From assembly GCA_963770795.1 (NCBI GenBank), contig CAVYQR010000002.1, forward strand, positions 56,943-120,942: 64,000 bases of DNA. Reading direction: 5' to 3'. Below are positions 26,941 through 46,684 of the stretch, piece by piece. This stretch comes from an uncultured Chloroflexia bacterium. GTDB taxonomy: Bacteria > Chloroflexota > Limnocylindria > Limnocylindrales > CSP1-4. Under the pieces are notes generated by a model. The model saw only the letters and a list, made by a program, of their open reading frames with translations, was not told the origin of the DNA and ran no database searches. How positions within the stretch are numbered: position 1 is the stretch's first letter; each line of letters begins with the position of its first letter. The position numbers and the translations under genes were made by a program.

Positions 26941-29106
26941 TCAGGGCTCCAGCAGCCCGAGCCAGTCGCCGAACTCCTCGACGTGCGTCATCCGGCCGAG
27001 CTTCTGGTACTCGCGCTCGGTGCCGCGCACGAGATCCAGCATCGTGACGGGCCGGTCTTCGGCGATCGCGTAGAAGGCGGCGGCGACGCAGATGTTCCGG
27101 ATGTTGCCGCCGGACAGCTTGAACGCGGTCGCCAGGAACTCGAGGTCAACCTCGTCGGCGCGCGGCACGGCGGGCGGCAGGTGGAGGTCCCACAGCCGCA
27201 GCCGGTCGGCCTCCTCCGGCAGGGCGAAGTCCACGATCACGTCGAGCCGGCGCAGGAACGCCTCGTCGAGGTTCGCACGCAGGTTGGTGGTCAGAACGGC
27301 CAGACCGTCGAAGCGCTCCATCCGCTGGAGCAGGTAGGCGATCTCGACGTTCGCGTAGCGGTCTCGAGCGTCCTTCACCTCGGACCGCTTGCCGAAGATG
27401 GCGTCGGCCTCGTCGAACAGCAGGACGCCGTTCACGCGGTCGGCCTCGTTGAAGATCCGGTCGAGGTTCTTCTCTGTCTCGCCGATGTACTTGTCCACCA
27501 CTGTGGCGAGGTCGATCAGGTAGAGGTCAAGCCCGAGATCGGCGGCGACGACCTCCGCGGACAGCGTCTTGCCGGTGCCGCTATCGCCGGCGAACAGGGC
27601 CGTGACGCCCGTGCCCCGAGCCGAGCCACCGCCCATCCCCCACTCTCTGACCCGCTCCCGGTGCCTCGCGCGGCTGGTCAGCTCGCGCAGCGGCCCGATC
27701 GTCTCGGCCGGCAGCACCAGGTCATCCCAGCCAGCCTGGGCCTCGATCCGGCGCGCCAGCCGTTCCAACCCGCCGGCGTTCTGGGCTCGCGCGCCCGCCC
27801 GCAGGTCCTCGGGCTCGATGGACCGCGCCTCCGCCACGGCGCGGCGCTTCGCCGCCACGGCCGCCCGCCGGACCTGGATCGGATCGAGCCGGAACCCGGC
27901 AGTCAGGCCTGCGGGATCCAGGGAGTCGACGACGCCGGCCGCGGCCCCGTCGTATTCGTCGTCGCCGCCGCCGGCCGCCAGAGCCGCGTGCCAGGTGGCG
28001 CGCCGGGCGTCAACCGCGTACAGCGGCGCGTCCAGGATCACGGGCACCTCCCGCGACCAGGCCGGGTCCCAGCCCCGGAGGCCGAGCAGCACGACCGGGC
28101 AACGGGCTTCGGCGAAGGCACGGATCGCCGCGGGGCCGCGCTCAGCCAGCACCTCGATGGGCCCGGCCACGATCGCCGCGCCGCGAAGGACTGCCTCGCG
28201 GACACAGGCGGCGCCAAGCTCGACGGCATCGTCGCCGGCCGTGATCCGCGAGAGGTCCACCGGCAGGACGCCGAGACCCGCGGAACCGACGGCGGCCGTC
28301 GCCCAGGAACGGCCCGCCGTGCCTGCGCGGTCGCGGACGTATGCCAACCGCGTGCCGGACCGCAGCGCCGTCGTCAGCGTGGGTCCGCCGATGGCATCGG
28401 GCGAGGGCTCCGGGTCGCTCGCAGACATGAGCGCCTCGACGCGGGGCTCCGGCCGGTCGTCACCGAGCAGGTGCGCGGTGACCCGGTCCGGGACCCGGAG
28501 AGCCCTGGTGAGGAACGGGCGATCGGGATCGTCGATGAGGATCAACCCACCGCTGACCAGGTGCGAGGTCGGGGCAAGCCGGTGCCGCTCGGTGCGCAGA
28601 CCATCCCCGCCCCGCGTCAGCTCCAGGGCCAGACCGGCACTCGCCCGCCGGCGCGAGACATCGTCGTGGAGGTAGGCATACAGGCGCTCGAACCGGGGAT
28701 CCAGGTCGGGCGCCAGGGCGACGAGCAGGACCTCCAGGTCCATCTCGTCGAGCTCGAAAGCGCCGGCCAGTCGCCTGAGGCGCAGGTCGGCGCCGGCGGC
28801 CTCCGCAGCATCGGCCCGTGCCTCGACCCTGGCGATCGCTGCGTCCAGGCCCGGGCCCGTCCCGGGTTCGATCCGGGGTGGCTGGTCGAACAGGGCATCC
28901 ACCTGGGCCTCGGTGATGTACAGGCCCCGGAACCGGTCGCCCGGGTCCGGATCAGTCGCGCGCCGGCGGTCCACGGCGGCGCGGACGCGCGCCTCGACCA
29001 CGACCAGGCGCCCGAAGAGGTAGACCAGCGACGGGTCCGGGCGACCGGCATCCGCGGGCGCGGCGGGCGCTGAGTCCGGCTCCTCCCGGGACGCGCGGGT
29101 GGTCAT
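26941..29106 (-). CDS. eCIS AAA+ ATPase (Afp15/Pvc15-like)
   Basis: Walker A (GDSGTGKTLSAEV), Walker B (LLFDEADAIF), and a second-region DKYIGETEKNL; 721 aa with an N-terminal extension as in Afp15. Confidence 0.85.
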   Translation of the reverse strand: MTTRASREEPDSAPAAPADAGRPDPSLVYLFGRLVVVEARVRAAVDRRRATDPDPGDRFRGLYITEAQVDALFDQPPRIEPGTGPGLDAAIARVEARADAAEAAGADLRLRRLAGAFELDEMDLEVLLVALAPDLDPRFERLYAYLHDDVSRRRASAGLALELTRGGDGLRTERHRLAPTSHLVSGGLILIDDPDRPFLTRALRVPDRVTAHLLGDDRPEPRVEALMSASDPEPSPDAIGGPTLTTALRSGTRLAYVRDRAGTAGRSWATAAVGSAGLGVLPVDLSRITAGDDAVELGAACVREAVLRGAAIVAGPIEVLAERGPAAIRAFAEARCPVVLLGLRGWDPAWSREVPVILDAPLYAVDARRATWHAALAAGGGDDEYDGAAAGVVDSLDPAGLTAGFRLDPIQVRRAAVAAKRRAVAEARSIEPEDLRAGARAQNAGGLERLARRIEAQAGWDDLVLPAETIGPLRELTSRARHRERVREWGMGGGSARGTGVTALFAGDSGTGKTLSAEVVAADLGLDLYLIDLATVVDKYIGETEKNLDRIFNEADRVNGVLLFDEADAIFGKRSEVKDARDRYANVEIAYLLQRMERFDGLAVLTTNLRANLDEAFLRRLDVIVDFALPEEADRLRLWDLHLPPAVPRADEVDLEFLATAFKLSGGNIRNICVAAAFYAIAEDRPVTMLDLVRGTEREYQKLGRMTHVEEFGDWLGLLEP

Positions 29107-29109
29107 GGC

Positions 29110-29994
29110 TCAGGGTCGCGGGACGCCGCGGACGCGCACGACCCGGCCACTACCCAGGCCGGCGAGCTCGGCCGAGACTTCGTCCTCGACGGCTCCCGGG
29201 GCGGTGCCCGTTGCGGCGCTCGCGGCGGCGCCCTCGCCCTTCCTGCGGTCCGCTCCCCTTCCCTTCCTGGTCTCGTGCGTGCCGGTCGACACGGCCGCCA
29301 CCCCCGTCGATCCTGCGCGGACCAGCTCGGATTGGAGCGCGTCGTCGCCGGGACCGAGCACGCGGCTCGCCGCGCGGCCGCGACGCGCACCGCCACGGAG
29401 GCGCCGTTCTGCATCGATCCCGGGGCCACCGAACCCGAGGGTCGGTCCCTCCATCACCGGGGCCGCGACCGGCCACGACCAGGAGGCGTCCAGGGTGCTG
29501 TCGCGACGAGGTCGAGCGACGGCTTCAGCTCCCCGCCCATCGCCGACCACACGTCGGCGATCGAGCGGTCGGGTCCGACCGGCAGGCCGACGCTCAGGAT
29601 GATCGGGTACGGACGACGACGCCAGCGAGCCGGAGAGGAGCTCCGCCGGGATCGTCTCGTTCCGGACGAACGTGGCGAGGCAGGCTGAGAGCAGGCGGTG
29701 CTCGTCCTCGGGGCGCTGCGTCCACGCGGTGACGAGGTAGGAGAGGCGGAACCGCCGCGGGGGCATGCGTCGCTCGCCGGCGACGCGCGACGCCTCGTCG
29801 CGCATCAGCTGGGGCACGATCTGGCGCCGCGAGGTGTCCTCGCGGATGTCGTACAGGTAGATGTCGACCGTCGGGGCGTTGCGGCGCGCAACCCATTCCC
29901 TGGTGGGCGCGTCGAACAGGACTTCCACGCGCGACCCGTTGAGCGCATCGCGGCGGACGAGAGCCTCGATCGCCTCGTCGACCTCCTGGATCAT
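29110..29994 (-). CDS. DUF4255 (Afp16/Pvc16-like tail terminator/cap) protein
   Basis: MIQEVDEAIEALVRRDALNGSRVEVLFDAPTREW...DIYLYDIRED matches the DUF4255 N-terminus; start at ATG 29994; C-terminal third is low-complexity. Confidence 0.7.
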   Translation of the reverse strand: MIQEVDEAIEALVRRDALNGSRVEVLFDAPTREWVARRNAPTVDIYLYDIREDTSRRQIVPQLMRDEASRVAGERRMPPRRFRLSYLVTAWTQRPEDEHRLLSACLATFVRNETIPAELLSGSLASSSVPDHPERRPAGRTRPLDRRRVVGDGRGAEAVARPRRDSTLDASWSWPVAAPVMEGPTLGFGGPGIDAERRLRGGARRGRAASRVLGPGDDALQSELVRAGSTGVAAVSTGTHETRKGRGADRRKGEGAAASAATGTAPGAVEDEVSAELAGLGSGRVVRVRGVPRP

Positions 29995-30176
29995 CGCCGC
30001 AAGTGTCCCGCCCGACCGCGTCACGGTCCCCCGGCCCCGGGGCATCCGTTCGGGCGGTCGCCGTTGCCCGATCGGGTGATCGCACCCGCCCGACCGCCCG
30101 CGCGGGCGGTCCTTGTTCGCGTGCCGTGCGGGTGGGAGCCTCGGCATGTCCGGTCATCGTACGGAAGGGGCGTCAT
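29995..30176. promoter_or_regulatory. divergent intergenic promoter region between the eCIS cap/ATPase/cargo operon and the sheath-led structural operon
   Basis: 182-bp gap between the divergent starts; promoters not identified by motif. Confidence 0.4.
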
Positions 30177-31694
30177 ATGCCGAGCTACCTGTCACCCGGC
30201 GTCTACGTCGAGGAGGTGCCGTCCGGCTCTCGACCGATCGAGGGTGTCGGGACCGCCGTCGCGGCGTTCGTCGGCCTCGCGGCGAAGGGCCCGTTCAACG
30301 AGCCACGGCTGCTCACCAACTGGGGGCAGTTCACCTCGACGTTCGGCGACTTCATGGAGGGTTCCTACCTCGCCCATGCGGTCTATGGATACTTCCTGAA
30401 TGGCGGCGGGTCCTGCTACCTGGTGCGCGTCGGTGCCGACGGAGCCCAGCCGGTCGCACGGGTGGAGCTGCCGAGCGCCGCCGATGCCGCGAAGCCCGCC
30501 TTCCGCGTCACGGCGCAAGAGCCCGGCGCGGCGGGCAACGACCTGAGCGTCGATATCGCCGAACCCAGCGACGCCGGCGAAGGGGTCTTCAAGCTCGTCG
30601 TGAAGCAGGGCGGCAAGACCGCGGAGACCTTCGACAACGTGACCGTCGGCCGCGGCAAGCAGAACGTGTCGACGGTCGTCAAGGCGCAATCGAAGCTCAT
30701 CACCATCGAGGAGGTGGGCTCACTGGCCGCCCCGGCAACCGCGTCCGCGGCCGCGCTCAGCGGCGGCAGCGCGAGTGTCCCCGCCCGCGTGACGCCCGAC
30801 GACTATGTCGGGAACTCGGCGGATCGGACCGGCTTCGCCGGCCTGGAAGCCGTGGACGAGGTCACGATGCTCGCCGTGCCCGACCTGATGGCCGTGTACG
30901 AGCAGGGGATCATCGACCTCGAGGGCGTCCTCGCCGTCCAGCTCGCGATGATCGCCCACTGCGAGCTGATGGGCGACCGCGTCGCCATCCTCGACGCGCC
31001 TCCAGGCCTCAACTCGCAGCAGGTCAAGGAGTGGCGGGTCGACAAGGCCGGCTACGACAGCAAGTACGCGGCCCTCTACTGGCCCTGGATCAAGGTGTTC
31101 GATCCATTGTCCGGCCAGGCGAAGTTCGTCCCGCCCGGGGGGCACATGGCCGGCGTCTGGGCCCGGAACGACGACACCCGCGGGGTCCACAAGGCCCCGG
31201 CCAACGAGGTCGTCCGCGGCGCCATCGCCCTCGAGCTCCAGGTGACCAAGGGCGAGCACGACGCGCTCAATCCGAATGGGATCAATGTCATCCGTTCCTT
31301 CCCCGGCCGCGGGATCCGCGTGTGGGGCGCCCGGACGCTCTCGTCCGATCCCGCCTGGCGCTACCTCAACGTCCGGCGCCTGTTCAACTACGTCGAGGAG
31401 TCGATCCTCGAGGGGACCCAGTGGGTCGTCTTCGAGCCGAACGACATGGCCCTCTGGGAGCGCGTGAAGCGGACCGTCGGCTCATTCCTGCTCGGGGTCT
31501 GGCGGGACGGTGCGTTGTTCGGGGCCACCCCGGACGCGGCGTTCTACGTCAAGTGCGACGCAGAGACCAACCCGCCGGACGTCATCGACCGCGGGCAGCT
31601 CGTCGTCGAGGTGGGAATTGCCCCGGTGAAGCCCGCCGAGTTCGTCATCTTCCGCATCGCCCAGTTCTCGGGCGGCGCGGGCGTCAGCGAATAA
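30177..31694 (+). CDS. contractile tail sheath protein (eCIS sheath)
   Basis: N-terminus MPSYLSPGVYVEEVPSGSRPIEGVGTAVAAFVGLAAKGP is the canonical sheath signature; 505 aa. Confidence 0.9.
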   Translation: MPSYLSPGVYVEEVPSGSRPIEGVGTAVAAFVGLAAKGPFNEPRLLTNWGQFTSTFGDFMEGSYLAHAVYGYFLNGGGSCYLVRVGADGAQPVARVELPSAADAAKPAFRVTAQEPGAAGNDLSVDIAEPSDAGEGVFKLVVKQGGKTAETFDNVTVGRGKQNVSTVVKAQSKLITIEEVGSLAAPATASAAALSGGSASVPARVTPDDYVGNSADRTGFAGLEAVDEVTMLAVPDLMAVYEQGIIDLEGVLAVQLAMIAHCELMGDRVAILDAPPGLNSQQVKEWRVDKAGYDSKYAALYWPWIKVFDPLSGQAKFVPPGGHMAGVWARNDDTRGVHKAPANEVVRGAIALELQVTKGEHDALNPNGINVIRSFPGRGIRVWGARTLSSDPAWRYLNVRRLFNYVEESILEGTQWVVFEPNDMALWERVKRTVGSFLLGVWRDGALFGATPDAAFYVKCDAETNPPDVIDRGQLVVEVGIAPVKPAEFVIFRIAQFSGGAGVSE

Positions 31695-31706: not shown

Positions 31707-32165
31707 ATGCCTTTCGGACTGCCGAGCCTGCCCAACGACGCGATCGCGTCGTACCACTTCTCCGTCGAGGTCGACAGCCTGGAGATCGCCCAGTTCTCGG
31801 AGCTCTCCGGGATCACGAGCGAGATCGACGTCATCGAGCTCAAGGAGAACATGCGCGACGGGAAGCCGGTCATCAAGAAGCTCCCGGGCGCGCGCAAGCC
31901 GCCGACCATCACCCTCAAGCGCGCGAAGAGCGCATCGATGGACCTTTGGAACTGGCACGCCGCGATGCGCGACGGCGACGTCGCCGGCGCCCGCAAGAAC
32001 GGCTCCGTCGTCCTCTACGACTACACCTTCGGGGAAGTGGCCCGCTACAACTTCCTCAACGGATGGGTGTCCAAGATCACGATGGGTGCGGCCAAGGCCG
32101 GGGCCAACGAGGTCCTGACCGAGGAGGTGACAATCGTGTGCGAAGAGCTCGTCCGGGTGAAGTGA
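31707..32165 (+). CDS. tail tube protein (T4 gp19 / Afp1-like)
   Basis: 152 aa; YHFSVEVDSLEIAQFSELSGITSEIDVIELKEN...KKLPGARKPPTITLKRA pattern. Confidence 0.85.
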   Translation: MPFGLPSLPNDAIASYHFSVEVDSLEIAQFSELSGITSEIDVIELKENMRDGKPVIKKLPGARKPPTITLKRAKSASMDLWNWHAAMRDGDVAGARKNGSVVLYDYTFGEVARYNFLNGWVSKITMGAAKAGANEVLTEEVTIVCEELVRVK

Positions 32166-32166
32166 C

Positions 32167-32589
32167 GTGATGGCCGGCGCCGAGGCTCCTGCCGCCCGGG
32201 TCGGGCGGCAGGATCCCGCGCTGCGGACGGAATTCCCGTTCGTCCTGCCGCGCGGTTACGTCGACGATGCGGGGGTTGTTCACCGCGACGGCGTCATGCG
32301 CCTGGCAACGGCGCGCGACGAGATCCTCCCCCAGCGCGACCCGCGCGTTCGCGAGAACGAGGCCTACCTGACGGTCCTCCTGCTGGCCCGGGTCGTGATG
32401 CGGATCGGCACGGTGTCACCGGTCACGACCGGGACGATCGAGGGCCTGTTCGCGTCCGATCTCGCGTTCCTCCAGGACCTCTACCGGCGGGTGAACGCCG
32501 AGGGCCACAGCCAGGCCGCCGTGACCTGCCCGGCGTGCAAGCACGAGTTCATGGTGGACCTGGCGGGTGATTCCCCGGGGGAATCGTGA
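32167..32589 (+). CDS. tail-assembly-chaperone-like protein (G-like ORF)
   Basis: 140 aa with good GC3, positioned between the tube and tape-measure-like genes; ends 10 nt after a CCCGGGG heptamer. Confidence 0.55.
   Translation: MMAGAEAPAARVGRQDPALRTEFPFVLPRGYVDDAGVVHRDGVMRLATARDEILPQRDPRVRENEAYLTVLLLARVVMRIGTVSPVTTGTIEGLFASDLAFLQDLYRRVNAEGHSQAAVTCPACKHEFMVDLAGDSPGES
32574..32580 (+). promoter_or_regulatory. candidate -1 programmed ribosomal frameshift site CCCGGGG (XXXYYYZ)
   Basis: Heptamer in the X_XXY_YYZ phase of the upstream ORF. The -1 frame opens at 32571 (after a TGA at 32568) and continues to 32741. Confidence 0.45.
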
Positions 32590-32741
32590 CGTACCCGACC
32601 GATCGCCTCTTCGAGGAGGTCGCGTACGTCGCCTACCACCTTCACTGGTCGTTCGAAGAGCTCCTCGACCTGGAGCATCCGGTCCGACGCCGGTTCGTCG
32701 AGGAGATCGACCGGTTGAACCGGCGTTCCGAGGAGGGTTAG
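32586..32741 (+). CDS. GT-like extension ORF (52 aa, -1 frame, overlaps the upstream stop as GTGA)
   Basis: VTYPTDRLFEEVAYVAYHLHWSFEELLDLEHPVRRRFVEEIDRLNRRSEEG; high GC3; not in the ORF track because it is short. Confidence 0.5.
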   Translation: MTYPTDRLFEEVAYVAYHLHWSFEELLDLEHPVRRRFVEEIDRLNRRSEEG

Positions 32742-32747
32742 ACGCGG

Positions 32748-34830
32748 ATGAATCTCGGGTCGCTGGTCCGGCGGCTCGTACCGGGCGCGCGCCCGTCCCG
32801 TGCCGGCGAGCAATCGGGTCCCGTCGGCACGGGTGTGCCGGGCGGGGATGCGTCCCTGCCTGGCCCGATCACGGCCGGCGAGTGGAGGTCTCTGCCGCCG
32901 ATCCAGAGAACGGTGGGCGCCATGCCGCTGATCGCACCCGGCGCACCATTCAAGGCCGGCCTCGCAGCGGCACGGCCCGCGCCTTTCGCGCTCGCGCCCC
33001 TCGGCCACGAGCGGCGCCTCGAGGCGCCGGCCGGGCTCGCGATCGGGATCGCGACCCCGGTGCAGCGTGCCCCGGCCGAGCCCCTCCCCACCTCCGTTCG
33101 CCGGCGGGGAGGGGCTGGCCACGGGCCGGGCACCGCGACAACCGGGGCCATCCACTGGCCGGACGCAGATACCGGGGAACCTGCCGCCGAGGGCCCGGCC
33201 GAGGCCAAGGGCGGCGAGGCACCCGCCGGCACATCGGTGAGACCGCACCCCGTCGAGGGACCGTCGCTCGTCTCAGGCCCATCGACGGCGACACCGCCGA
33301 CGGGGCTCGTCGGGATGGCCGCCGTGGCGCGATCCTTCTGCCGTCGCACAGCGGAGCGCCGAGGGCCTCGACTCGTCGGCCGGGAGCGCGCCGGTCGCGC
33401 TCGGCCCGCCCGTCGCGCTCCCGGCCGGGCTGGCGCCGTCCAACGCTGCGGAGGCATCAGTCGGGACGGCCGGCGCGCCCACGGCGCCGCTCGCCGGGTC
33501 TGGGCCGCCGCTGGTGGCGCGGCGCGTGCGGCTCGGCCCGCCCGTGCGCTCGCTGGGCTCCGCCGGGCCGGTCGTGGCCCATCCCCCGGGGAGTTCCGCC
33601 TCACAGGGCCAGCCGACCGTCGCCCGCGCTCCGGGCTCCCCGCCCGCGCCGGGCTCCCCGCCCGAGCGTGAGGCGGCTGCTGCAGGGGAACCGGTCGCCC
33701 CTGGCGAGGCTGCGGCCGTGCCGGTCACCGCGCCCCCGGGGGCTCCGCCCTCCCTTCAGGCCCTTTCAGCCGGATCTGGTGCCGTCCAGCCCGACGCCAC
33801 CGAGCCGGCGCCACTCGGAGCCCGAGGGGCGGCCGCGTCCGCCCTGGGTCCCCCCGTGGTCCTCCGGACCGCCGGCCCGGCGCGCCGCCCGAGCGCACCG
33901 CTTGTCGGCGGCCTGCGGCCGTCCGCCCACCTGGGCCACCCGGGAGTCATCCCGCGGTCCTCCGCGCCGGAGCCGGACGCGGCCCGGGCCGACGAGATCG
34001 GCAGCCCGTCCGCCGCGCTGGCCGCCCTCGCACGTGTCGACCCCTTCGGTGGCCCGTTCGGTGACACAGCGCCCGGCCCTGGCACCGGGTTCATCGCGCC
34101 CGGGGAGCCACCCTGGTCCGCCCCCTTCGCCGGTCGACCTGCCGGGTTCGCGCCGCAGTCCCAGCCCGGGTTCGCGTCGCAGTCCCAGCCCGGCGCCGGG
34201 TTCTCTGCGATGCCGGCGGTATCCCGGTCCCTTGGCGCAGGGGACGACGCCCAGGCGGACGACGGGCCCGGCCTCACCTGGACGAACCCGTGGGCCCCGC
34301 GAGGCGCCTCCGAGACCGCCGAGCGGCCGGGCTCCGGACCGTCACCACGAACGACGGATGTGGGCCTGAGGTCCGCGCAGCCCATCGTGTCTCGCGCGCC
34401 GTCCGGCCCGTTCGTGCCGAGGCCCCGGGGGCTCCGTGTCGCACCGGCGATCCAGCGCCGCGTGACCCAATCGGGCAGCCAGTCCGAGGACGCGCAGGCC
34501 GAGCGTGCCCCCGCGTCGGAGCCGCTCGACGGCTGGGGGACCGGACGGAACGCGCCAGCGGTCGCGCGCCTGGCGGACACGGCCGCCCCGCCGGTCAACC
34601 TGGCGCCGCTGCAGCGGGCCGAGGACGCGACCTCCGTGGCTCCCACCGCGGGCGCGGATCCCGCCTCGGGCGTGGCCGGCGGGACATCCGGGGCGCCCGG
34701 CAGTCCCGCGGCCGAGAAGGAGCTCGACGACCTCGCCCGACGGCTGTACGACCGGATTGGCCTGCGCCTGCGCCGCGAGCTGCTCGTCGAGCGCGAGCGG
34801 TCCGGTGCGCTCGTTGACCGGGGGTTCTGA
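32748..34830 (+). CDS. Pro/Ala-rich tape-measure-like protein (frame break between 33241 and 33671)
   Basis: Frame 0 (32748..33671) and frame 1 (open 33241..34830) both show a coding GC3 pattern. The C-terminus ELDDLARRLYDRIGLRLRRELLVERERSG is well formed. Position after the chaperone pair matches a phage tape measure. Confidence 0.4.
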
Positions 34831-38117: not shown

Positions 38118-38516
38118 GTGAGCCAGGAATTCATCGGGCAGGGTTGGGCCTTCCCGGTCACCACGGACGCGACAGGGGGCATCCGCCTCGTGTCCCGGGA
38201 GGCCGAGATCGAGCAGAGCATCCGCCTGATTCTCTCAACGGCGCCCGGGGAGCGCCCGATGCGGCCCGAGTTCGGGTGCGCCATCCATGACTACGTGTTC
38301 GATCCGGCGGACGGCCGCACCGCGGCCCGGATGTCGTTCGCTGTTCGCGAGGCGCTTCGTCGCTGGGAGCCGCGGATCGACGTCATCGACGTGCGTGTCG
38401 ACCGTCACCCGGACGCGGACGACGCGCTCCTGCTGGACATCCGCTACACGACGTCCGACACCAACGACCCGCGCAATCTCGTGTTCCCGTTCTACGTCAT
38501 CCCCGGCGAAGGCTGA
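38118..38516 (+). CDS. baseplate wedge protein gp25/GPW family (Afp9-like)
   Basis: GQGWAFPVTTDATGGIRLVSREAEIEQSIRLILSTAPGERPMRPEFGCAIHDYVFDP is the GPW/gp25 signature; GTG start with a GGAGGGGAA RBS. Confidence 0.85.
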   Translation: MSQEFIGQGWAFPVTTDATGGIRLVSREAEIEQSIRLILSTAPGERPMRPEFGCAIHDYVFDPADGRTAARMSFAVREALRRWEPRIDVIDVRVDRHPDADDALLLDIRYTTSDTNDPRNLVFPFYVIPGEG

Positions 38517-41253: not shown

Positions 41254-43506
41254 GTGATTGTCTGCGGCAACTGCGGCGCAAAGAACCAGGAGTCGGACGC
41301 CTTCTGCGGGGAGTGCGGCAAGTTCCTCGAGTGGGTCGGCAAGCGCACGGACGAGGCCCCAGCCCTCCGGGAACCGGAGGTTGCCGCGGCGGCGGCAGAG
41401 GCGCAGCGCAGGCAGGACGAGGTTGCCGCGGCGGCAGCGGCGCAGGCGGCAGCGGCGGCAGAGGCGGCGGCAGAGGCGCAGCGCAGGCAGGACGAGGTTG
41501 CCGCGGCGGCGGCAGAGGCGCAGGCGGCGGCAGAGGCGGCGGCGGCAGAGGCGGCAGAGGCGGCGGCGGCAGAGGCGGCGGCGGCAGAGGCGGCGGCGGC
41601 AGAGGCGGCAGAGGCGGCAGAGGCGGCGGCGGCAGAGGCGGCGGCGGCAGAGGCGGCCGAGGCGGCCGAGGCGCAGCGCAGGCAGGACGAGGTTGCCGCG
41701 GCGGCAGCGGCGCAGCGCAGGCAGGACGAGGTTGCCGCGGCGGCGGCAGAGGCGCAGCGCAGGCAGGACGAGGTTGCCGCGGCGGCGGCAGAGGCGCAGC
41801 GCAGGCAGGACGAGGTTGCCGCGGCGGCGGCAGAGGCGCAGCGCAGGCAGGACGAGGTTGCCGCGGCGGCGGCAGAGGCGGCGGAGGCGCAGCGCAGGCA
41901 GGACGAGGTTGCCGCGGCGGCAGCGGCGCAGGCGGCGGAGGCGCAGCGCAGGCAGGACGAGGTTGCCGCGGCGGCGGCAGAGGCGCAGGCGGCGGAGGCG
42001 CAGCGCAGGCAGGACGAGGTTGCCGCGGCGGCGGCAGAGGCGCAGGCGGCGGCAGAGGCGGCGGCGGCAGAGGCGGCAGAGGCGGCGGCGGCAGAGGCGG
42101 CCGAGGCGGCGGCGGCCGCGGCGGCCGAGGCGCAGCGCAGGCAGGACGAGGTTGCCGCGGCGGCAGCGGCGCAGCGCAGGCAGGACGAGGTTGCCGCGGC
42201 GGCAGCGGCGCAGCGCAGGCAGGACGAGGTTGCCGCGGCGGCAGCGGCGCAGCGCAGGCAGGACGAGGTTGCCGCGGCGGCAGCGGCGGCAGAGGCGGCG
42301 GCGGCTGAGGCGGCCGAGGCGCAGCGCAACGTTCCTCGTGCCCGCCGCGGCGGACCGTCGAGGCCGGCGGCGATCACGATCGCCGCCGCGCCCGCGTCAG
42401 ACGCGACGACGGCCGATGACCAGGAGGCCCCGGCGATCACGCCCTCGATACCACGCCCCGATGACGACGGACCATCGGCTGGTGGGCCTGCCGCCCAGCC
42501 AGAAGCTATCCAGCCGGTCGGGCATCCGCCGGGCGAACCACCCGTCGACGCGCTGCCAGCCGTCCGGCCGACGGCTGTCGCGCCCCGGGCGGCAGCATCA
42601 GGCTCCACCCAGCCACCGGCCCGTACCCCCGTTGCAGAGCCCGACCAGCCTGTCGCACGCCAGCCCACTGCAGATCGGCCGACCGAGGCCAGGCCACGGG
42701 CCGCGGCCACCCCCGAGCGCCGTGTCCCTCGGCCGGGTGATCGGCTCTGCGTGGCTTGCGGCGAGGCAAACGACCCGGCGCGCAAGTTCTGCAGGCGGTG
42801 CGGCGCCGACCTCCTTGAGGCCCGGGTCGTCGCGGCGGCACCACTACCTTGGTGGAAGCGGTTGTTCCGGCGGAAGCCCAAGCAGTACGCAGCCGGCGAA
42901 CGGACGAGAACCATGCAGCCCGGCAAGACCGGGCGAAGGAGCACGGGCATGGGCCGAATCCGGCTGAGGCAGGTGGTCGAGTGGGTCCTGGGTCTCCTCG
43001 TCCTCCTTGGCATCATCGGGTACCTCGCCGTGCCCGGCATGCAGCAGATCATCAACCGGGCCGTGTCAAGCGGGGTCGATTCGATCCAGCGCACGGTGAA
43101 CCCGCGCCTGGAGCCCGTCCGACCGGCCCGGGCCGTGGCGTCGGACGAGATCGAAGACCACCCGGGCGCGAACCTGTTCGACAAGTACGCGAACACGGAC
43201 TGGCGTGCCTCCTCCGCGCAACCCGCCGTTACCGCGACATTCGACGAGACCTTTGATCTCGGCGCGCTGATCGTCTACTCGGGAGCCGCCGAGAACTTCA
43301 CCGAGACCAGGCGACCCGCGAAGATCCAGCTCACATTCCCCGACGGTTCGTCGACTGTGCTTGACCTCAAGGACGACAACGCCAAACAGACGATTACGGT
43401 CGAGAAGTCGGGAATCGACGAGTTCGAGCTGACGATCGTCGAGACCTACGGCCCGGCGGACCGCCCCGTCACGATTTCCGAGATAGAGGTCTTTGCGCGT
43501 CGATAG
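41254..43506 (+). CDS. CisA-like bitopic membrane protein: double zinc-ribbon, Ala/Glu/Gln repeat, TM, discoidin-like C-terminal domain
   Basis: CGNCG...FCGECGKFLEW and CVACG...FCRRCG ribbons; TM (VVEWVLGLLVLLGIIGYLAV); C-terminal domain homologous to 13978..15135; occupies the position where Afp-type loci encode the tail fibre. Confidence 0.7.
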   Translation: MIVCGNCGAKNQESDAFCGECGKFLEWVGKRTDEAPALREPEVAAAAAEAQRRQDEVAAAAAAQAAAAAEAAAEAQRRQDEVAAAAAEAQAAAEAAAAEAAEAAAAEAAAAEAAAAEAAEAAEAAAAEAAAAEAAEAAEAQRRQDEVAAAAAAQRRQDEVAAAAAEAQRRQDEVAAAAAEAQRRQDEVAAAAAEAQRRQDEVAAAAAEAAEAQRRQDEVAAAAAAQAAEAQRRQDEVAAAAAEAQAAEAQRRQDEVAAAAAEAQAAAEAAAAEAAEAAAAEAAEAAAAAAAEAQRRQDEVAAAAAAQRRQDEVAAAAAAQRRQDEVAAAAAAQRRQDEVAAAAAAAEAAAAEAAEAQRNVPRARRGGPSRPAAITIAAAPASDATTADDQEAPAITPSIPRPDDDGPSAGGPAAQPEAIQPVGHPPGEPPVDALPAVRPTAVAPRAAASGSTQPPARTPVAEPDQPVARQPTADRPTEARPRAAATPERRVPRPGDRLCVACGEANDPARKFCRRCGADLLEARVVAAAPLPWWKRLFRRKPKQYAAGERTRTMQPGKTGRRSTGMGRIRLRQVVEWVLGLLVLLGIIGYLAVPGMQQIINRAVSSGVDSIQRTVNPRLEPVRPARAVASDEIEDHPGANLFDKYANTDWRASSAQPAVTATFDETFDLGALIVYSGAAENFTETRRPAKIQLTFPDGSSTVLDLKDDNAKQTITVEKSGIDEFELTIVETYGPADRPVTISEIEVFARR
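41401..42330 (+). repeat. about 930 bp of 42-bp tandem repeats encoding EAQRRQDEVAAAAA and EAAAA variants
   Basis: gcgcagcgcaggcaggacgaggttgccgcggcggcggcagag repeated more than 15 times with Ala-run spacers. Confidence 0.9.
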
Positions 43507-43549: not shown

Positions 43550-46500
43550 TCAGGTTGCCACGGGCGGCGCAGGTGGCACGGACACGCCAAGGCCCGCGAG
43601 CACGGCAGCGTATTCGCGACGGTCACGGCTCGCTGCCCCGGTATCGCCTGCACGTTCTCGCGCGACGATCAGGAGCCTCCACAGCGGGTCGTGGAACCGA
43701 TCCAGCGCCAAGCCGGCGTGGCACGCATGCACGGCCCCGGCCAGATCCCCGACAGCCAGCAAGCCCGCCGCGAGCGCCACCGACGCTTCGATGGCCCCGA
43801 AGCGCACCTGCTCCCGGCGCCCGACCACCCATTCGGCCGGGCCGTCCTCGGGCAGCACGTCTCCCGGATACAACGCGAGCGCCGCCCTGAATGCCTCGAT
43901 CGCGGGCGCTCTCCGCTCCTCCAGCGACCGCGCCTCCGCCAGCGCCTGTTCGAACCGACGCACGTCCACGGCACCCGAAGGCACCACGAGCCGGTAGACC
44001 TCGCCCTGTCGCTCGATCACGCTGGTTGCATCGAGAGGGGCGACCGCGGCGAGTTGACCGCGCAGCGCGGAGATCGCGACCTGCAGGCTGCGTGCGCCCG
44101 TCGGGCCGTCGGCCTCCGGCCAGAGAGCCTCCTGCAGAACCTCGCGATGGACTGGGTCCGGCGCGTGCAGCGCCAGCAGGCGAAGCAGCGCCCGCGCGCG
44201 CGGCTTGACGCCTGTCAGGTCCAGGGGTTGCCCATCCACCGACGCCCGAAAACCTCCCAGAACGCCCACCTCGAGGCCCGTCCACCGACCGTTGGACGTG
44301 CCCGCCGGCGAGGCGGGCGACGCGACGATCGCGGCGCGCGCGGCGGGCAGCGCGAGACCTGTCTCCTCCCCCATGCCATCGGCCAGGATCGCGTACTCTG
44401 CCGCCCGATCGGGGTCCGCGAGCTCCAGCGCGCGGTAGGCGAGATGCCGCGCACCCGCCACACCGGTGAGGCGCCCGAACGCCTCGGCAGCCAAGGCTGC
44501 GTCACGTGAGCCTTCGAGACCGCTCTCAGCCTGGACGAGGGCGCCGAGCGCCCGTGCCCAGGCCTCCAGGGCGCCCGCGCCGACACTCCGGAACTGCGTG
44601 GCGGCGGTCGCTGCGTCCGTCAGCGGGCGCACCGGGTCCTCGATACCAGCCCCGGGCCGGCCTGCCGTCCTGACCCACGCGCGCACAAGGGCACCTAGCC
44701 CGACAGTCCACGGGTCGCCGTCGCACACGCCCACCGGCCCGGGCTCGCTCCCCTCCTGGTCGTCTGTCGGTACACCTGGGTCGGTCAGTTGCTGGGCGAC
44801 GCCCCGCCCGAGGTCCATCAGCCACGGCACTCCGGCGCGCTCGGCGTCCTCGATTGCTGCCGCAAGGCTCTCGGACACCTCAGGGTCGGCACGAAGCAGA
44901 TCCGCAATCGCGGCCCCGAGGCGTGCAGCTGCAGCAAGCGAGGGCTCGAGCCGTCCCTCGTGTGCAACCTGCCGGAGCGCGCGCGACGCCTCCCGGACCG
45001 AGCCCGAGGCGAGGAGCAGCAGGCCACGCACGAGCAGACCGACTGCGTCATCGAGCCCGGTAGCTTCGCGGGCCGCGGCCCGAGGGTCGCGTGCGAGGCC
45101 CGTCCTGAGGGGACCGGTCCAGTGCGCCGGCAGAATCGCCGCTGGATCTATCCAGGCGGAGAGGATCGCACGCTCACGGCGGCAGGCAGCGGACGACTCG
45201 GTTCCGCCAAGACCGGCGGCCGCGTTCGAATAGGACTCGATAGCCGCGGCCCACCTCCCCTCCGCCCTCGCACGGCGTGCCGTCGCGAGGGCAAGCCACG
45301 GGTCGTGCCGCACGAGTGCCGGTGGCAGTGCCTCAAGCCATGCCGTCCCGCCGTTCGCGAGGCGTTCCCCGCCGCCCGCGAGGAGCCGGTCGACCGCTAC
45401 CCAGTCCTCAGCTCGACACCACGCGATCAGCGCCTCCGCCAGCGCCCCGTCCGCCTCAAGCAGTGCGGCAGCTCGTGCGTAGCGCCGTCGAGCCTCGACC
45501 TCGCCAACCTGCACCACCAGGATCCGGTCCAGGTTTGACCTCAAGACCTCGTGGTACCGGTACACGTCGTCCTCATCCTCGTCCTCGACCGGCATGGTGA
45601 AGACGCTGCGGCGCGCCAGCTCGTCGAGCAGAAGGGAGCTCCCGGTCGTCCCGCGCAACCGGTCGCAAAGGCTGCCGGACAGGCGGCCCAGCACACACGT
45701 CTCCAGCAGGAACTCGCGAAGAGGATCGGGTAGCTCGGCCAGCACGTTCTGGGCCAGGTACTCCCGCAGCATTCGCCCGCGGACGTCGCCCGCGGTCAGG
45801 ACCCGCCTGCGCTCTTCGACCGACCGTCCGCGCGTCGCGAGGTGGAACAACTGGAGGCCGGCCGCCCAGCCCTCCATCCGCCTCGCCAGCGCCGCCAGGT
45901 CGGCGGGAGGCACGGGGTCGTGGTACACGTTGCGGAAGAGCTGCTCGACCTCCCACGATCGGAAGCGGAGATCGTCCTGCCCGAGCTCCAGGAGATCACC
46001 CGAGACACGGAGGCGCGGAAGGTTGATGGACGGCGGCACCCTGGAAGCAACGATCACCGCCAACCACGCGGGCGCGTAGTCGACCAGCCGCCCAAGCGCG
46101 ACCTCCGCCGGCGTCCCCTCAAGCGCGTGACCGTCATCGATCACGAGGAGGGCGGCCTCTCCGGGATGGCTCTCCAGGGCCCTGGCAACGTCGTCGATGC
46201 TCGACCAGCCGCCCGGAATGCCCGGCAACGTGGACCGGAGCGCCGCCTCGAGGTGGCGCACGAACGAATCCTCGTCTGCGTCCCAGGTCTCTGCCCGATA
46301 CCAGGCCACGGGGGCGCCACAGGTTGCGGCGAACCGCGCGACGAGCGTTGTCTTGCCAGAGCCGGCGGGTGCCACCACGAGCGTGAGGCGCTTGCCAAAG
46401 GCCTCGGCCAGGCGGGCCTCCAGGCGCTCGCGGGGCAGCGCGTCCGGGACGGGGGCGCGGACCTTCGCGGGCACCACGAGGGGCACCCGCGGCCCTACCT

Positions 46501-46684
46501 CGGACGCACCGGCCCCTGCCGATCCCCGCTTGGAGCGCTCTCGCCCGTCGCGCAATAGAGGTCTCCCTCGCCGCTCATCGCTCTCCGACGCCGGTGGGAT
46601 CCGTATCGTCCCACCATTGACGGTCGCGGTCCAGCGTCGGTCTCGGGCGCGGACGGCATTCTTCGGACCGCAGCGGCGAGGCAA
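43550..46684 (-). CDS. large ATPase-wHTH-BTAD transcriptional regulator (MalT/SARP-like hybrid)
   Basis: N-terminal P-loop (VVAPAGSGKTTL); C-terminal OmpR-type winged helix (GFRASVDGQPLDL...VYRLVV) and a BTAD region (...DPLWRLLIVARERAGDTGAASRDRREYAAVLA); precise start uncertain. Confidence 0.7.
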   Translation of the reverse strand: MPRRCGPKNAVRARDRRWTATVNGGTIRIPPASESDERRGRPLLRDGRERSKRGSAGAGASEVGPRVPLVVPAKVRAPVPDALPRERLEARLAEAFGKRLTLVVAPAGSGKTTLVARFAATCGAPVAWYRAETWDADEDSFVRHLEAALRSTLPGIPGGWSSIDDVARALESHPGEAALLVIDDGHALEGTPAEVALGRLVDYAPAWLAVIVASRVPPSINLPRLRVSGDLLELGQDDLRFRSWEVEQLFRNVYHDPVPPADLAALARRMEGWAAGLQLFHLATRGRSVEERRRVLTAGDVRGRMLREYLAQNVLAELPDPLREFLLETCVLGRLSGSLCDRLRGTTGSSLLLDELARRSVFTMPVEDEDEDDVYRYHEVLRSNLDRILVVQVGEVEARRRYARAAALLEADGALAEALIAWCRAEDWVAVDRLLAGGGERLANGGTAWLEALPPALVRHDPWLALATARRARAEGRWAAAIESYSNAAAGLGGTESSAACRRERAILSAWIDPAAILPAHWTGPLRTGLARDPRAAAREATGLDDAVGLLVRGLLLLASGSVREASRALRQVAHEGRLEPSLAAAARLGAAIADLLRADPEVSESLAAAIEDAERAGVPWLMDLGRGVAQQLTDPGVPTDDQEGSEPGPVGVCDGDPWTVGLGALVRAWVRTAGRPGAGIEDPVRPLTDAATAATQFRSVGAGALEAWARALGALVQAESGLEGSRDAALAAEAFGRLTGVAGARHLAYRALELADPDRAAEYAILADGMGEETGLALPAARAAIVASPASPAGTSNGRWTGLEVGVLGGFRASVDGQPLDLTGVKPRARALLRLLALHAPDPVHREVLQEALWPEADGPTGARSLQVAISALRGQLAAVAPLDATSVIERQGEVYRLVVPSGAVDVRRFEQALAEARSLEERRAPAIEAFRAALALYPGDVLPEDGPAEWVVGRREQVRFGAIEASVALAAGLLAVGDLAGAVHACHAGLALDRFHDPLWRLLIVARERAGDTGAASRDRREYAAVLAGLGVSVPPAPPVAT

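What the first reader, a model, noticed from the sequence alone, without database searches (positions are those of the whole stretch)
32167..32741. G/GT-style tail-assembly-chaperone pair with a canonical CCCGGGG -1 slippery heptamer between tube and tape-measure genes
A 140-aa ORF (32167..32589) follows the tube gene. A 52-aa ORF (32586..32741) starts in the -1 frame and overlaps the first stop as GTGA. Ten nt before that stop lies C_CCG_GGG (32574-32580) in exact X_XXY_YYZ phase. The -1 frame is open from 32571. A -1 slip would therefore fuse ORF1 to ...G-IVTYPTDRLFEEVAYVAYHLHWSFEELLDLEHPVRRRFVEEIDRLNRRSEEG.

In lambda, P2 and most long-tailed phages, the position, small sizes, overlap and slippery site mark the G/GT chaperones that act with the tape measure. 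As far as I know this has not been highlighted for eCIS loci.
Basis: seen in the sequence. Interest (0 to 1): 0.65.

Follow-up and report, generated by a model that had tools for sequence, protein, structure and literature searches.

The report
Frameshifted tail chaperone in injection-system locus

Summary
The sequence facts are correct: ORF1 (32170/32167-32589), ORF2 (32586-32741, Pfam DUF6760), the GTGA overlap, C_CCG_GGG in phase at 32574-32580, and a -1 frame open from 32571.

C_CCG_GGG is not the conserved element. It occurs in 11 of 78 orthologous loci and 34 times in this window. The conserved element is G_GGG_GAA at 32577-32583, in ORF1 phase. All 78 standard loci have GGGGGAA, GGGGGGA, GGGGGGG or GGGAAAA there, as do relatives of 39-58% G+C. 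It is the window's only GGGGGAA, and PRFect found that motif in about a thousand actinophage chaperone frameshifts.

Five bases downstream lies a conserved 12-15 bp hairpin (-26.3 kcal/mol, z -3.9, some covariation). ORF2 is in the -1 frame in 80 of 81 loci. It has no ATG/GTG/TTG in 13 of 78 loci and in three distant relatives examined. Other injection-system lineages encode both parts as one in-frame protein. ORF1 resembles phage tail assembly chaperones by profile and fold.

Verdict: a real, conserved -1 frameshift cassette giving ORF1 (139 aa) and an ORF1-DUF6760 fusion (190 aa). It is a new member of a known kind. I found no report of it in the injection-system papers I could search.

The parts
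31707..32165 (+). Tail tube gene immediately upstream of the chaperone pair
   Evidence: PF06841 Phage_T4_gp19, E = 3.8e-27
32170..32589 (+). ORF1, the G-like tail assembly chaperone (139 aa from ATG 32170; alternative GTG at 32167). It ends in a CxxC beta-hairpin.
   Evidence: Translation. PHROG_508 'tail assembly chaperone' is hit by 16 of 18 family members, best E = 3.7e-6. The AlphaFold model has pLDDT 88. Foldseek against BFVD gives E = 8.8e-7 to the Bacillus phage BCD7 protein that lies between the tube and tape-measure genes. It also hits T4-like 'baseplate hub assembly' proteins, and Mu FS-gp41 at E = 0.03.
32568..32570 (+). TGA in the -1 frame. It limits any productive shift to 32571-32586.
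   Evidence: The same limit (a stop 18-21 nt upstream of the conserved Thr-Tyr) is present in 14 of 78 loci.
32574..32580 (+). It is in phase but not conserved.
   Evidence: Present in 11 of 78 loci; CCTGGGG is found in 53. It occurs 34 times in the window.
32577..32583 (+). The conserved slippery heptamer G_GGG_GAA, in ORF1 phase
   Evidence: GGGGGAA 65, GGGGGGA 7, GGGGGGG 5 and GGGAAAA 1 of 78 loci. The first G is invariant although its codon encodes L, P, A, V, S or Q. The Gly codon is GGG in nearly all loci (third-position information 1.9 of 2 bits), whereas upstream Gly codons vary freely. It is the only GGGGGAA in the window. The same motif is in phase in loci of 39-58% G+C. It is the motif of about a thousand SEA-PHAGES chaperone frameshifts (PMC10885494).
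32584..32588 (+). Five-nucleotide spacer (UCGUG) between the heptamer and the robust part of the stem
32586..32632 (+). Downstream stimulatory hairpin. Arms are 32586-32600 and 32618-32632. The conserved core is 32589-32600 paired with 32618-32629.
   Evidence: -26.3 kcal/mol, z = -3.88, 1 of 200 shuffles as stable. On 73 distinct sequences, 89.8% of cells are paired. Thirteen cells are changed on both sides against 2.3 +/- 1.4 in shuffles (0 of 500). Slid controls give 18-46% paired. Synonymous sites in the arms are constrained. Distant relatives have an equivalent hairpin of different sequence (GCUACC...GGUAGC) 3-5 nt after the heptamer.
32583..32741 (+). The -1 frame segment encoding the T-like part, a DUF6760 domain. 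It is read from ATC 32583 after the slip. The annotated ORF2 starts at GTG 32586.
   Evidence: PF20546 DUF6760, 50.6 bits, E = 2e-13. It is in the -1 frame in 80 of 81 loci.
32748..34830 (+). Tape-measure-like gene. In this window it is split into two overlapping ORFs (32748-33671 and 33514-34830).
   Evidence: Relatives have one ORF of 650-880 aa in this position, ending just before the second tube gene.

Best explanation

Most ribosomes stop at UGA 32587 and make ORF1 (139 aa). A fraction slip back one base on G_GGG_GAA (32577-32583), paused by the hairpin that starts 5 nt downstream. tRNA-Gly re-pairs from GGG to GGG. tRNA-Glu re-pairs from GAA to GGA, using a G:U pair in the middle position. 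Those ribosomes continue in the -1 frame through the DUF6760 segment. The product is a 190-aa ORF1-DUF6760 fusion with the junction ...DSPGE-IVTYPTDR...

Shown here:
- conservation of the frame relation, the heptamer, its phase and the hairpin;
- loss of ORF2 start codons in relatives;
- in-frame fusions in other lineages;
- remote chaperone homology of ORF1.

Inferred:
- that slippage actually occurs, and how efficiently;
- the exact junction residue;
- that the two products chaperone the downstream tape-measure-like protein during tube assembly.
For: 1. Context. The locus is a true injection-system cluster. On the - strand it has a Pvc16_N cap and a WHD-AAA ATPase. On the + strand it has sheath, tube, ORF1, ORF2, a long gene, a second tube, a LysM tube initiator, VgrG, PAAR, gp25, Baseplate_J and Tail_P2_I.

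2. Frame. ORF2 is in the -1 frame in 80 of 81 loci from Chloroflexota, Dormibacterota and Actinomycetota, including Streptomyces isolates.

3. Heptamer. The in-phase site is GGGGGAA in 65 loci, GGGGGGA in 7, GGGGGGG in 5 and the canonical GGGAAAA in 1, of 78. The X base is invariant while its codon's amino acid varies. The Gly codon is fixed as GGG, while other Gly codons vary. No locus has GGAGG there.

4. GGGGGAA occurs once in 128 kb of window sequence, against 9.8 +/- 3.2 expected.

5. The same motif is the 'fivetwo' slippery motif of about a thousand annotated actinophage chaperone frameshifts (PMC10885494). It is also the proposed site in corynephage phi16 (PMC5506516).

6. Start codons. 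Thirteen of 78 loci have CTG or GCG instead of a start codon for ORF2. Nine have no ATG/GTG/TTG anywhere between the upstream stop and codon +11. These include isolate genomes.

7. Distant relatives L089 (39% G+C), L091 (42%) and L092 (58%) keep G_GGG_GAA or G_GGG_GAG in phase. Their ORF2 is in the -1 frame, has no start codon and overlaps ORF1 by 26-45 nt. The stop-start coupling model cannot apply there.

8. The hairpin is conserved, with some covariation. It is absent in the two loci that lack a slip site.

9. Natural in-frame ORF1-like plus DUF6760 proteins exist in other injection-system loci. P0229 is found on 7 contigs from three sources and matches PF12322 at 2.7e-21, Phage_TAC_7 at 7.9e-4 and DUF6760 at 0.018. 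P0188 lies in locus L094. P0166, P0173 and P0265 are further examples. All align colinearly across the junction.

10. ORF1 is chaperone-like by PHROG profile and by fold.
Against: No protein-level evidence is available.

In this window ORF2 has a GTG in a GTGA stop-start overlap. The G-run sits 4 nt upstream of it, much like the real ribosome-binding site of the gp25-like gene at 38118. Coupled re-initiation is therefore possible here.

Two Dormibacterota loci (L015, L021) have no slip site. They have a GGAG-type ribosome-binding site and a GTG, so DUF6760 may work unfused in some lineages.

G_GGG_GAA is non-canonical, because the A-site re-pairing needs a G:U pair in the second position.

Most of the hairpin's conservation is sequence identity in a coding region, and covariation is modest (5 of 15 pairs).

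The depletion of GGGGGAA could partly reflect codon usage.

Database 'fusion' proteins that are closely related to ORF1 are nanopore assembly errors and do not count as evidence.
Confidence: 0.8

Rival explanations
1. There is no frameshift. ORF2 (DUF6760) is a separate small protein translated by termination-reinitiation at GTG 32586 in the GTGA overlap. The conserved G-run acts as its Shine-Dalgarno sequence. The hairpin enforces coupling by hiding the start codon until an ORF1-translating ribosome opens it.
For: The window has GTG plus GGGGG 4 nt upstream. This resembles the ribosome-binding site AGGAGGGGAACC-GTG of the gene at 38118. Of 78 loci, 62 have GTG and 3 have ATG at this position. 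L015 and L021 have clear GGAG-type sites plus GTG and no slip site. Pfam DUF6760 is modelled on stand-alone proteins that start near this point.
Against: Thirteen of 78 loci have CTG or GCG there, and nine have no start codon at all. L089, L091 and L092 have no start codon and long overlaps, yet keep the heptamer in phase. The position is V, L, M, A or I across the family, which looks like a hydrophobic coding position rather than a start codon. A Shine-Dalgarno model predicts that GGAGG variants would be tolerated. None is seen; only homopolymeric or X_XXY_YYZ forms occur, always in ORF1 phase. The -1 frame residues upstream of the supposed start (Gly-Gly-Ile/Val) are conserved. In-frame fusions exist elsewhere.
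Confidence: 0.1
2. A frameshift occurs, but in this genome on the first reader's heptamer C_CCG_GGG (32574-32580). It gives ...DSPG-GIVTYP... This includes a single-tRNA slip of tRNA-Gly on G_GGG.
For: The heptamer is in X_XXY_YYZ phase and the -1 frame is open there. The divergent locus L085 has C_CCG_GGG immediately followed by TGA. The A-site part (G GGG) is shared with the conserved G-run.
Against: Only 11 of 78 loci have CCCGGGG. In 53 the P-site codon would be CUG re-pairing to CCU, which is not slippery. The spacing to the hairpin core would be 8 nt, which is acceptable, so spacing does not discriminate. The motif conserved across phyla and G+C contents is GGGGGA(A/G).
Confidence: 0.07
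3. Artefact or pseudogene: a single chaperone ORF broken by an assembly indel or a mutation in the C/G homopolymer run.
For: The window's tape-measure-like gene does look broken by a frame change. Long-read metagenome assemblies of relatives carry many indels. L030 has a 1-nt deletion in the heptamer.
Against: The same -1 arrangement is found in 80 of 81 loci. These include many Illumina isolate genomes of Streptomyces, Micromonospora, Amycolatopsis, Kribbella, Nocardia and a complete Angustibacter chromosome.
Confidence: 0.02

Closest known systems
Lambda G/GT, P2 E/E+E' and Mu gp41/FS-gp41 tail assembly chaperones (Xu, Hendrix & Duda 2004, as described in PMC10885494; details from my own knowledge)
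   Same: The gene pair lies between the tube and tape-measure genes. The second ORF is in the -1 frame and overlaps the end of the first. An in-phase slippery heptamer should give a short product and a longer one that share an N-terminus. Mu FS-gp41 is a weak fold match to ORF1 (Foldseek E = 0.03, probability 0.98).
   Different: This pair sits in a chromosomal injection-system cluster with a Pvc16 cap and an AAA ATPase, not in a phage. The heptamer is G_GGG_GAA rather than G_GGA_AAG or T_TTT_TTG. The T-part is a DUF6760 domain. ORF1 carries a C-terminal CxxC hairpin. No Pfam chaperone family is matched above threshold.
Actinobacteriophage tail assembly chaperone frameshifts with the 'fivetwo' GGGGGAA motif (PRFect, PMC10885494; corynephage phi16, PMC5506516)
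   Same: The slippery sequence is identical, the host background is high in G+C, and a downstream RNA structure is present.
   Different: tblastn against 50,697 phage records found no protein similarity apart from one weak Bacillus phage hit. Here the motif also persists in relatives of 39-42% G+C.
T4 gp26-type chaperone / 'baseplate hub assembly' proteins (Pfam PF12322). Vladimirov, Gautam & Davidson 2022, Virology, known to me by title only, says these use a mechanism other than frameshifting.
   Same: These are the best fold matches of ORF1 (BCD7 J9PUD8 at E = 8.8e-7; T4-like baseplate hub assembly proteins at 6e-5 to 1e-4). BCD7 gp090 is syntenic, lying between tube and tape measure, and belongs to PF12322. 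The in-frame injection-system homologue P0229 is a PF12322 member.
   Different: Those are single ORFs without a frameshift. Neither the window's ORF1 nor the composite fusion reaches the PF12322 threshold.
Cellular -1 frameshift genes such as dnaX (from my own knowledge)
   Same: A chromosomal bacterial gene makes two products from one start through a heptamer and a downstream hairpin.
   Different: In dnaX the shift leads to early termination, not to a C-terminal extension. An upstream Shine-Dalgarno-like stimulator is conserved in dnaX, and I found none conserved here.

Membership tests
Phage-type G/GT tail assembly chaperone pair made by -1 frameshifting | The gene pair lies between the tail tube gene and the tape-measure gene | tested here: met
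   The tube gene (PF06841) ends at 32165. A long low-complexity gene follows at 32748-34830 and is a single ORF of 650-880 aa in relatives, followed by the second tube and the baseplate genes. Its identity as a tape measure is inferred from position and length only.
Phage-type G/GT tail assembly chaperone pair made by -1 frameshifting | The second ORF is in the -1 frame and overlaps the end of the first, conserved among orthologues | tested here: met
   80 of 81 loci, plus distant loci L089, L091, L092 and L093
Phage-type G/GT tail assembly chaperone pair made by -1 frameshifting | A conserved slippery sequence in the phase of the first ORF, inside the overlap | tested here: met
G_GGG_GAA or G_GGG_GGN or G_GGA_AAA in 78 of 78 standard loci.
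Phage-type G/GT tail assembly chaperone pair made by -1 frameshifting | The second ORF has no translation start of its own | tested here: inconclusive
   The window has GTG 32586 preceded by a G-run. However, 13 of 78 orthologues and three distant relatives have no ATG/GTG/TTG. L015 and L021 have a clear ribosome-binding site plus GTG.
Phage-type G/GT tail assembly chaperone pair made by -1 frameshifting | Two proteins sharing an N-terminus are made in a fixed ratio | not testable with these tools
   This needs western blotting, mass spectrometry or a reporter assay.
Phage-type G/GT tail assembly chaperone pair made by -1 frameshifting | Sequence or fold similarity of the first ORF to known tail assembly chaperones | tested here: met
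Phage-type G/GT tail assembly chaperone pair made by -1 frameshifting | The products bind the tape-measure protein and recruit the tube protein | not testable with these tools
   Biochemical.
T4 gp26-type chaperone (Pfam PF12322 T4_baseplate) | A match to PF12322 above the gathering score | tested here: not met
   ORF1 and the composite 190-aa fusion give no PF12322 hit. The in-frame injection-system homologue P0229 scores 76.7 bits against a cut-off of 24.5. The relation is therefore to the family's neighbourhood, not membership.
T4 gp26-type chaperone (Pfam PF12322 T4_baseplate) | A single uninterrupted ORF | tested here: not met
   There are two ORFs in different frames.
Pfam DUF6760 (PF20546) | A match above the gathering score | tested here: met
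   ORF2 scores 50.6 bits against a cut-off of 27, E = 2e-13, on model positions 6-53 of 89.
Contractile injection system (eCIS/CIS) gene cluster | A Pvc16_N cap and an AAA+ ATPase together with sheath, tube, spike and baseplate genes | tested here: met
   Pvc16_N at 29110-30147 (-) and WHD+AAA at 26941-29106 (-). Sheath, two Phage_T4_gp19 tubes, CIS_tube+LysM, VgrG, PAAR, gp25, Baseplate_J and Tail_P2_I are on the + strand.

The most novel reading that the evidence does not exclude
A programmed -1 frameshift has been kept in cellular contractile injection systems across at least Actinomycetota (including the Streptomyces model systems), Chloroflexota, Dormibacterota and low-G+C lineages. It would produce an unannotated ORF1-DUF6760 chaperone isoform.

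The family shows three interconvertible ways of supplying the two chaperone forms: frameshift, in-frame fusion of the T4 gp26 type, and separate genes.

This would also mean that the long gene downstream, which Streptomyces papers describe as 'no typical tape measure' or as an effector, is assembled like a true tape measure.
Probability: 0.45. Interest if true: 0.65.

Novelty: new member of a known kind. Interest (0 to 1): 0.55.

Why it matters
Frameshifted chaperone pairs are a hallmark of long-tailed phages. I found no mention of them for contractile injection systems in the literature I could search. That includes four Streptomyces papers that describe these very clusters without naming a chaperone, a frameshift or a typical tape measure.

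If the frameshift is real:
- A protein of about 190 aa is missing from every annotation of these loci, Streptomyces included.
- DUF6760 gains a function, as the 'T' domain of the chaperone.
- The downstream gene can be tested as a length-determining tape measure.
- Engineering or heterologous expression of these systems would need the cassette kept intact.
- The list of chromosomal bacterial -1 frameshift genes, which is short, gains an entry.
- The lambda/P2 frameshift solution and the T4 gp26 non-frameshift solution are linked within one protein family.

Tried and rejected
- NCBIfam gave nothing for ORF1, ORF2 or the neighbours.
- tblastn of the fusion against 50,697 phage records gave only one weak hit at E = 0.5. 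It was useful only because it is syntenic.
- Profile searches against PDB sequences gave nothing.
- Rfam gave nothing near the site.
- The first AlphaFold run, on 18 close homologues, was unusable at pLDDT 46. A 77-sequence alignment fixed this.
- I first took database proteins that fuse ORF1 and DUF6760 (P0003, P0024, P0025, P0037, P0050 and others) as natural fusions. I rejected them. Their contigs are long-read metagenome assemblies in which the sheath and tube genes are also fragmented.
- RNAalifold on the ungapped alignment did not call the hairpin. Explicit pair counting did.
- I looked for a conserved upstream Shine-Dalgarno-like stimulator. GGTGG/GGTGA occurs 9-14 nt upstream in high-G+C loci, but it is absent in L089, so I do not claim it.
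- Transcriptional slippage on a run of five G was considered unlikely, from my own knowledge that much longer runs are needed. It was not tested.
- The Virology 2022 paper on T4-like chaperones could not be read.

Full report
**1. The observation**

The coordinates and sequence statements are correct.
- ORF1 runs from GTG 32167 or ATG 32170 to TGA 32587-32589.
- ORF2 starts at GTG 32586, in a GTGA overlap with the ORF1 stop, and ends at 32741. It is 51 aa.
- The 0-frame reads GAT TCC CCG GGG GAA TCG TGA, so C_CCG_GGG (32574-32580) is in X_XXY_YYZ phase.
- The -1 frame has a TGA at 32568-32570 and is open from 32571.

On its own this is weak. CCCGGGG occurs 34 times in the 71% G+C window. An in-phase XXXYYYZ pattern within the 16-nt shift window has roughly a 5% chance.

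**2. Context**

The locus is a contractile injection system.
- On the - strand lie a Pvc16_N cap (29110-30147) and a WHD-AAA ATPase (26941-29106).
- On the + strand lie sheath (30003-31694), tube (31707-32165), ORF1, ORF2 and a long low-complexity gene (32748-34830).
- These are followed by a second tube, a CIS_tube-LysM gene, VgrG, PAAR, gp25, Baseplate_J and Tail_P2_I.
- ORF2 is Pfam DUF6760 (50.6 bits). ORF1 has no Pfam family.

**3. Orthologues**

About 8,000 database proteins match the pair. A scan of one genome per species found more than 597 loci. I analysed the best 80, from Chloroflexota, Dormibacterota and many Actinomycetota. These include isolate genomes of Streptomyces, Micromonospora, Amycolatopsis, Kribbella and Nocardia, and a complete Angustibacter chromosome.

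ORF2 is in the -1 frame in 80 of 81 loci, counting the window. The exception is a 1-nt deletion in a long-read metagenome-assembled genome.

In the 78 loci with the standard layout, the block C(C/T)G GGG G(A/G)A TCG TGA CGT ACG is nearly invariant while its flanks vary.

It is the non-slippery CCTGGGG in 53.

The heptamer three bases downstream, in ORF1 phase, is GGGGGAA in 65 loci, GGGGGGA in 7, GGGGGGG in 5 and GGGAAAA in 1.
- Its first G is invariant although that codon encodes L, P, A, V, S or Q.
- The Gly codon is fixed as GGG, while upstream Gly codons vary freely.
- In the window, GGGGGAA occurs exactly once on both strands, against 9.8 +/- 3.2 expected.

**4. The motif is a known slippery sequence**

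[quoted passage not shown] It notes that tRNA-Glu can re-pair on GGA if G:U pairing is allowed (PMC10885494). Corynephage phi16 is annotated with the same site (PMC5506516).

**5. Downstream structure**

A hairpin spans 32586-32632. It is predicted at -26.3 kcal/mol, with z = -3.88.

Its robust 12-bp core starts 5 nt after the heptamer. Nearly every locus predicts it.

On 73 distinct sequences, 89.8% of the cells of the 15 pairs are paired. Slid controls give 18-46%. Five pairs show changes on both sides. Thirteen cells are changed on both sides, against 2.3 +/- 1.4 in shuffles (0 of 500). For example, L035 changes GCG/CGC to CCA/UGG at the cost of amino-acid changes.

Synonymous positions in the arms are unusually fixed: ACG for Thr and GCG for both Ala codons.

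Distant relatives have a different hairpin (GCUACC...GGUAGC) at the same place. The two loci without a slip site have none.

**6. Frameshift versus coupled re-initiation**

In the window, the G-run plus GTG could serve as a ribosome-binding site and start codon. Compare the site of the gene at 38118. L015 and L021 clearly use GGAG plus GTG without a slip site.

Several results count against this as the general mechanism.
- Thirteen of 78 loci have CTG or GCG instead of a start codon. Nine have no ATG/GTG/TTG at all upstream of the conserved Thr-Tyr.
- L089 (39% G+C), L091 (42%) and L092 (58%) keep G_GGG_GAA or G_GGG_GAG in phase. Their ORF2 is in the -1 frame, has no start codon and overlaps ORF1 by 26-45 nt.
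- The supposed start position is V, L, M, A or I, which looks like a coding position.
- GGAGG is never seen in place of the homopolymer.

**7. In-frame fusions**

Fused database proteins from close relatives are long-read assembly errors and were discarded.

An exhaustive profile-free search found 1,586 representative clusters. Among them are distant in-frame proteins that combine ORF1-like and DUF6760 parts.
- P0229 is 311 aa and identical on 7 contigs from JGI, ENA and Logan. It lies in a locus between the tube gene and the Pvc16/AAA genes. It matches PF12322 T4_baseplate at 2.7e-21, Phage_TAC_7 at 7.9e-4 and DUF6760 at 0.018.
- P0188 lies in locus L094.
- P0166, P0173 and P0265 are further examples.

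All align colinearly with the predicted fusion. P0188 reads ...TGE-TIGYP..., which resembles the junction predicted for a tandem slip...PGE-IVTYP...

**8. What ORF1 is**

- PHROG_508 'tail assembly chaperone' is matched by 16 of 18 family members, best E = 3.7e-6.
- With a 77-sequence alignment, AlphaFold gives pLDDT 88.
- Foldseek against viral models finds Bacillus phage BCD7 J9PUD8 at E = 8.8e-7. This protein lies between the tube and tape-measure genes and belongs to PF12322.
- Foldseek then finds T4-like 'baseplate hub assembly' proteins, and Mu FS-gp41 at E = 0.03.

ORF1 is therefore a remote chaperone relative, closest to the T4 gp26 group.

**9. Mechanism proposed**

Most ribosomes terminate at UGA 32587 and make ORF1 (139 aa). 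A fraction slip -1 on G_GGG_GAA against the hairpin and make a 190-aa ORF1-DUF6760 protein.

By analogy with G/GT (established knowledge, not tested here), both forms would coat the downstream tape-measure-like protein, and the DUF6760 part would recruit tube subunits.

Efficiency, the exact junction and function are all inferred.

**10. Novelty**

None of the Streptomyces papers I could read mentions a chaperone or a frameshift. One states that a typical tape measure is absent (PMC10066040, PMC10020575, PMC11126660, PMC13277306).

Searches combining injection-system terms with 'tail assembly chaperone' or 'frameshift' found nothing relevant. 'DUF6760' appears in no held paper.

The Virology 2022 paper on T4-like chaperones could not be read, so prior mention there cannot be excluded.

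I rate this a new member of a known kind: a phage-type chaperone frameshift retained in cellular injection systems.

Noticed in passing
window 32748-34830: The tape-measure-like gene is split into two overlapping ORFs in different frames (32748-33671 and 33514-34830). Relatives have one ORF of 650-880 aa. The closest relative, L001, is also split, but at a different place. This is probably an assembly indel or a recent pseudogene. The second half of the first ORF looks like out-of-frame translation.
   Followed up: partly
whole window, both strands: GGGGGAA is about ten times rarer than dinucleotide shuffles predict (1 found against 9.8 +/- 3.2). The only copy is the frameshift site. This may reflect selection against an error-prone motif, or codon usage.
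   Followed up: partly
P0121, P0122, P0125, P0136 (244-252 aa), P0123 (417 aa); locus L089 3191-3949: In other lineages the ORF1 domain is duplicated in tandem two or three times within one protein. In L089 it is still followed by the G_GGG_GAA site and a -1 frame DUF6760 segment.
   Followed up: partly
L081, L082 (ENA ERZ250395xx contigs): Long-read metagenome assemblies of related loci have fragmented sheath and tube genes. They also produce spurious 'fused' ORF1-DUF6760 proteins in the protein database. Such entries should not be read as natural fusions.
   Followed up: yes
L015, L021 (Dormibacterota metagenome-assembled genomes): These two loci lack the G-run and the hairpin. Instead they have a GGAG-type ribosome-binding site and a GTG for the DUF6760 ORF, which still overlaps ORF1 as GTGA. 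This suggests a lineage in which the frameshift was replaced by separate translation.
   Followed up: partly
L093 around 2860-2910: This locus has two candidate sites: a canonical G_GGA_AAA in phase, and G_GGG_UAG at the ORF1 stop. It also has a possible GTG start. The gene caller's DUF6760 gene starts at a downstream ATG, which truncates the conserved N-terminus.
   Followed up: no
window 32163-32172: The tube stop and the ORF1 start are tightly packed (GTGAAGTGACGTGATG). GTG 32167 and ATG 32170 are both possible starts. Database orthologues start at the ATG.
   Followed up: no
window 41254-43506 and 43550-46684 (-): Downstream of the baseplate genes lies a 750-aa protein with an N-terminal zinc ribbon. 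On the opposite strand lies a 1,044-aa AAA_22 / Trans_reg_C / BTAD regulator. These may be a system-associated cargo or regulator.
   Followed up: no
PMC10020575: [quoted passage not shown] By gene order after sheath sco4253, it may be the ORF1 orthologue. I did not verify this.
   Followed up: no
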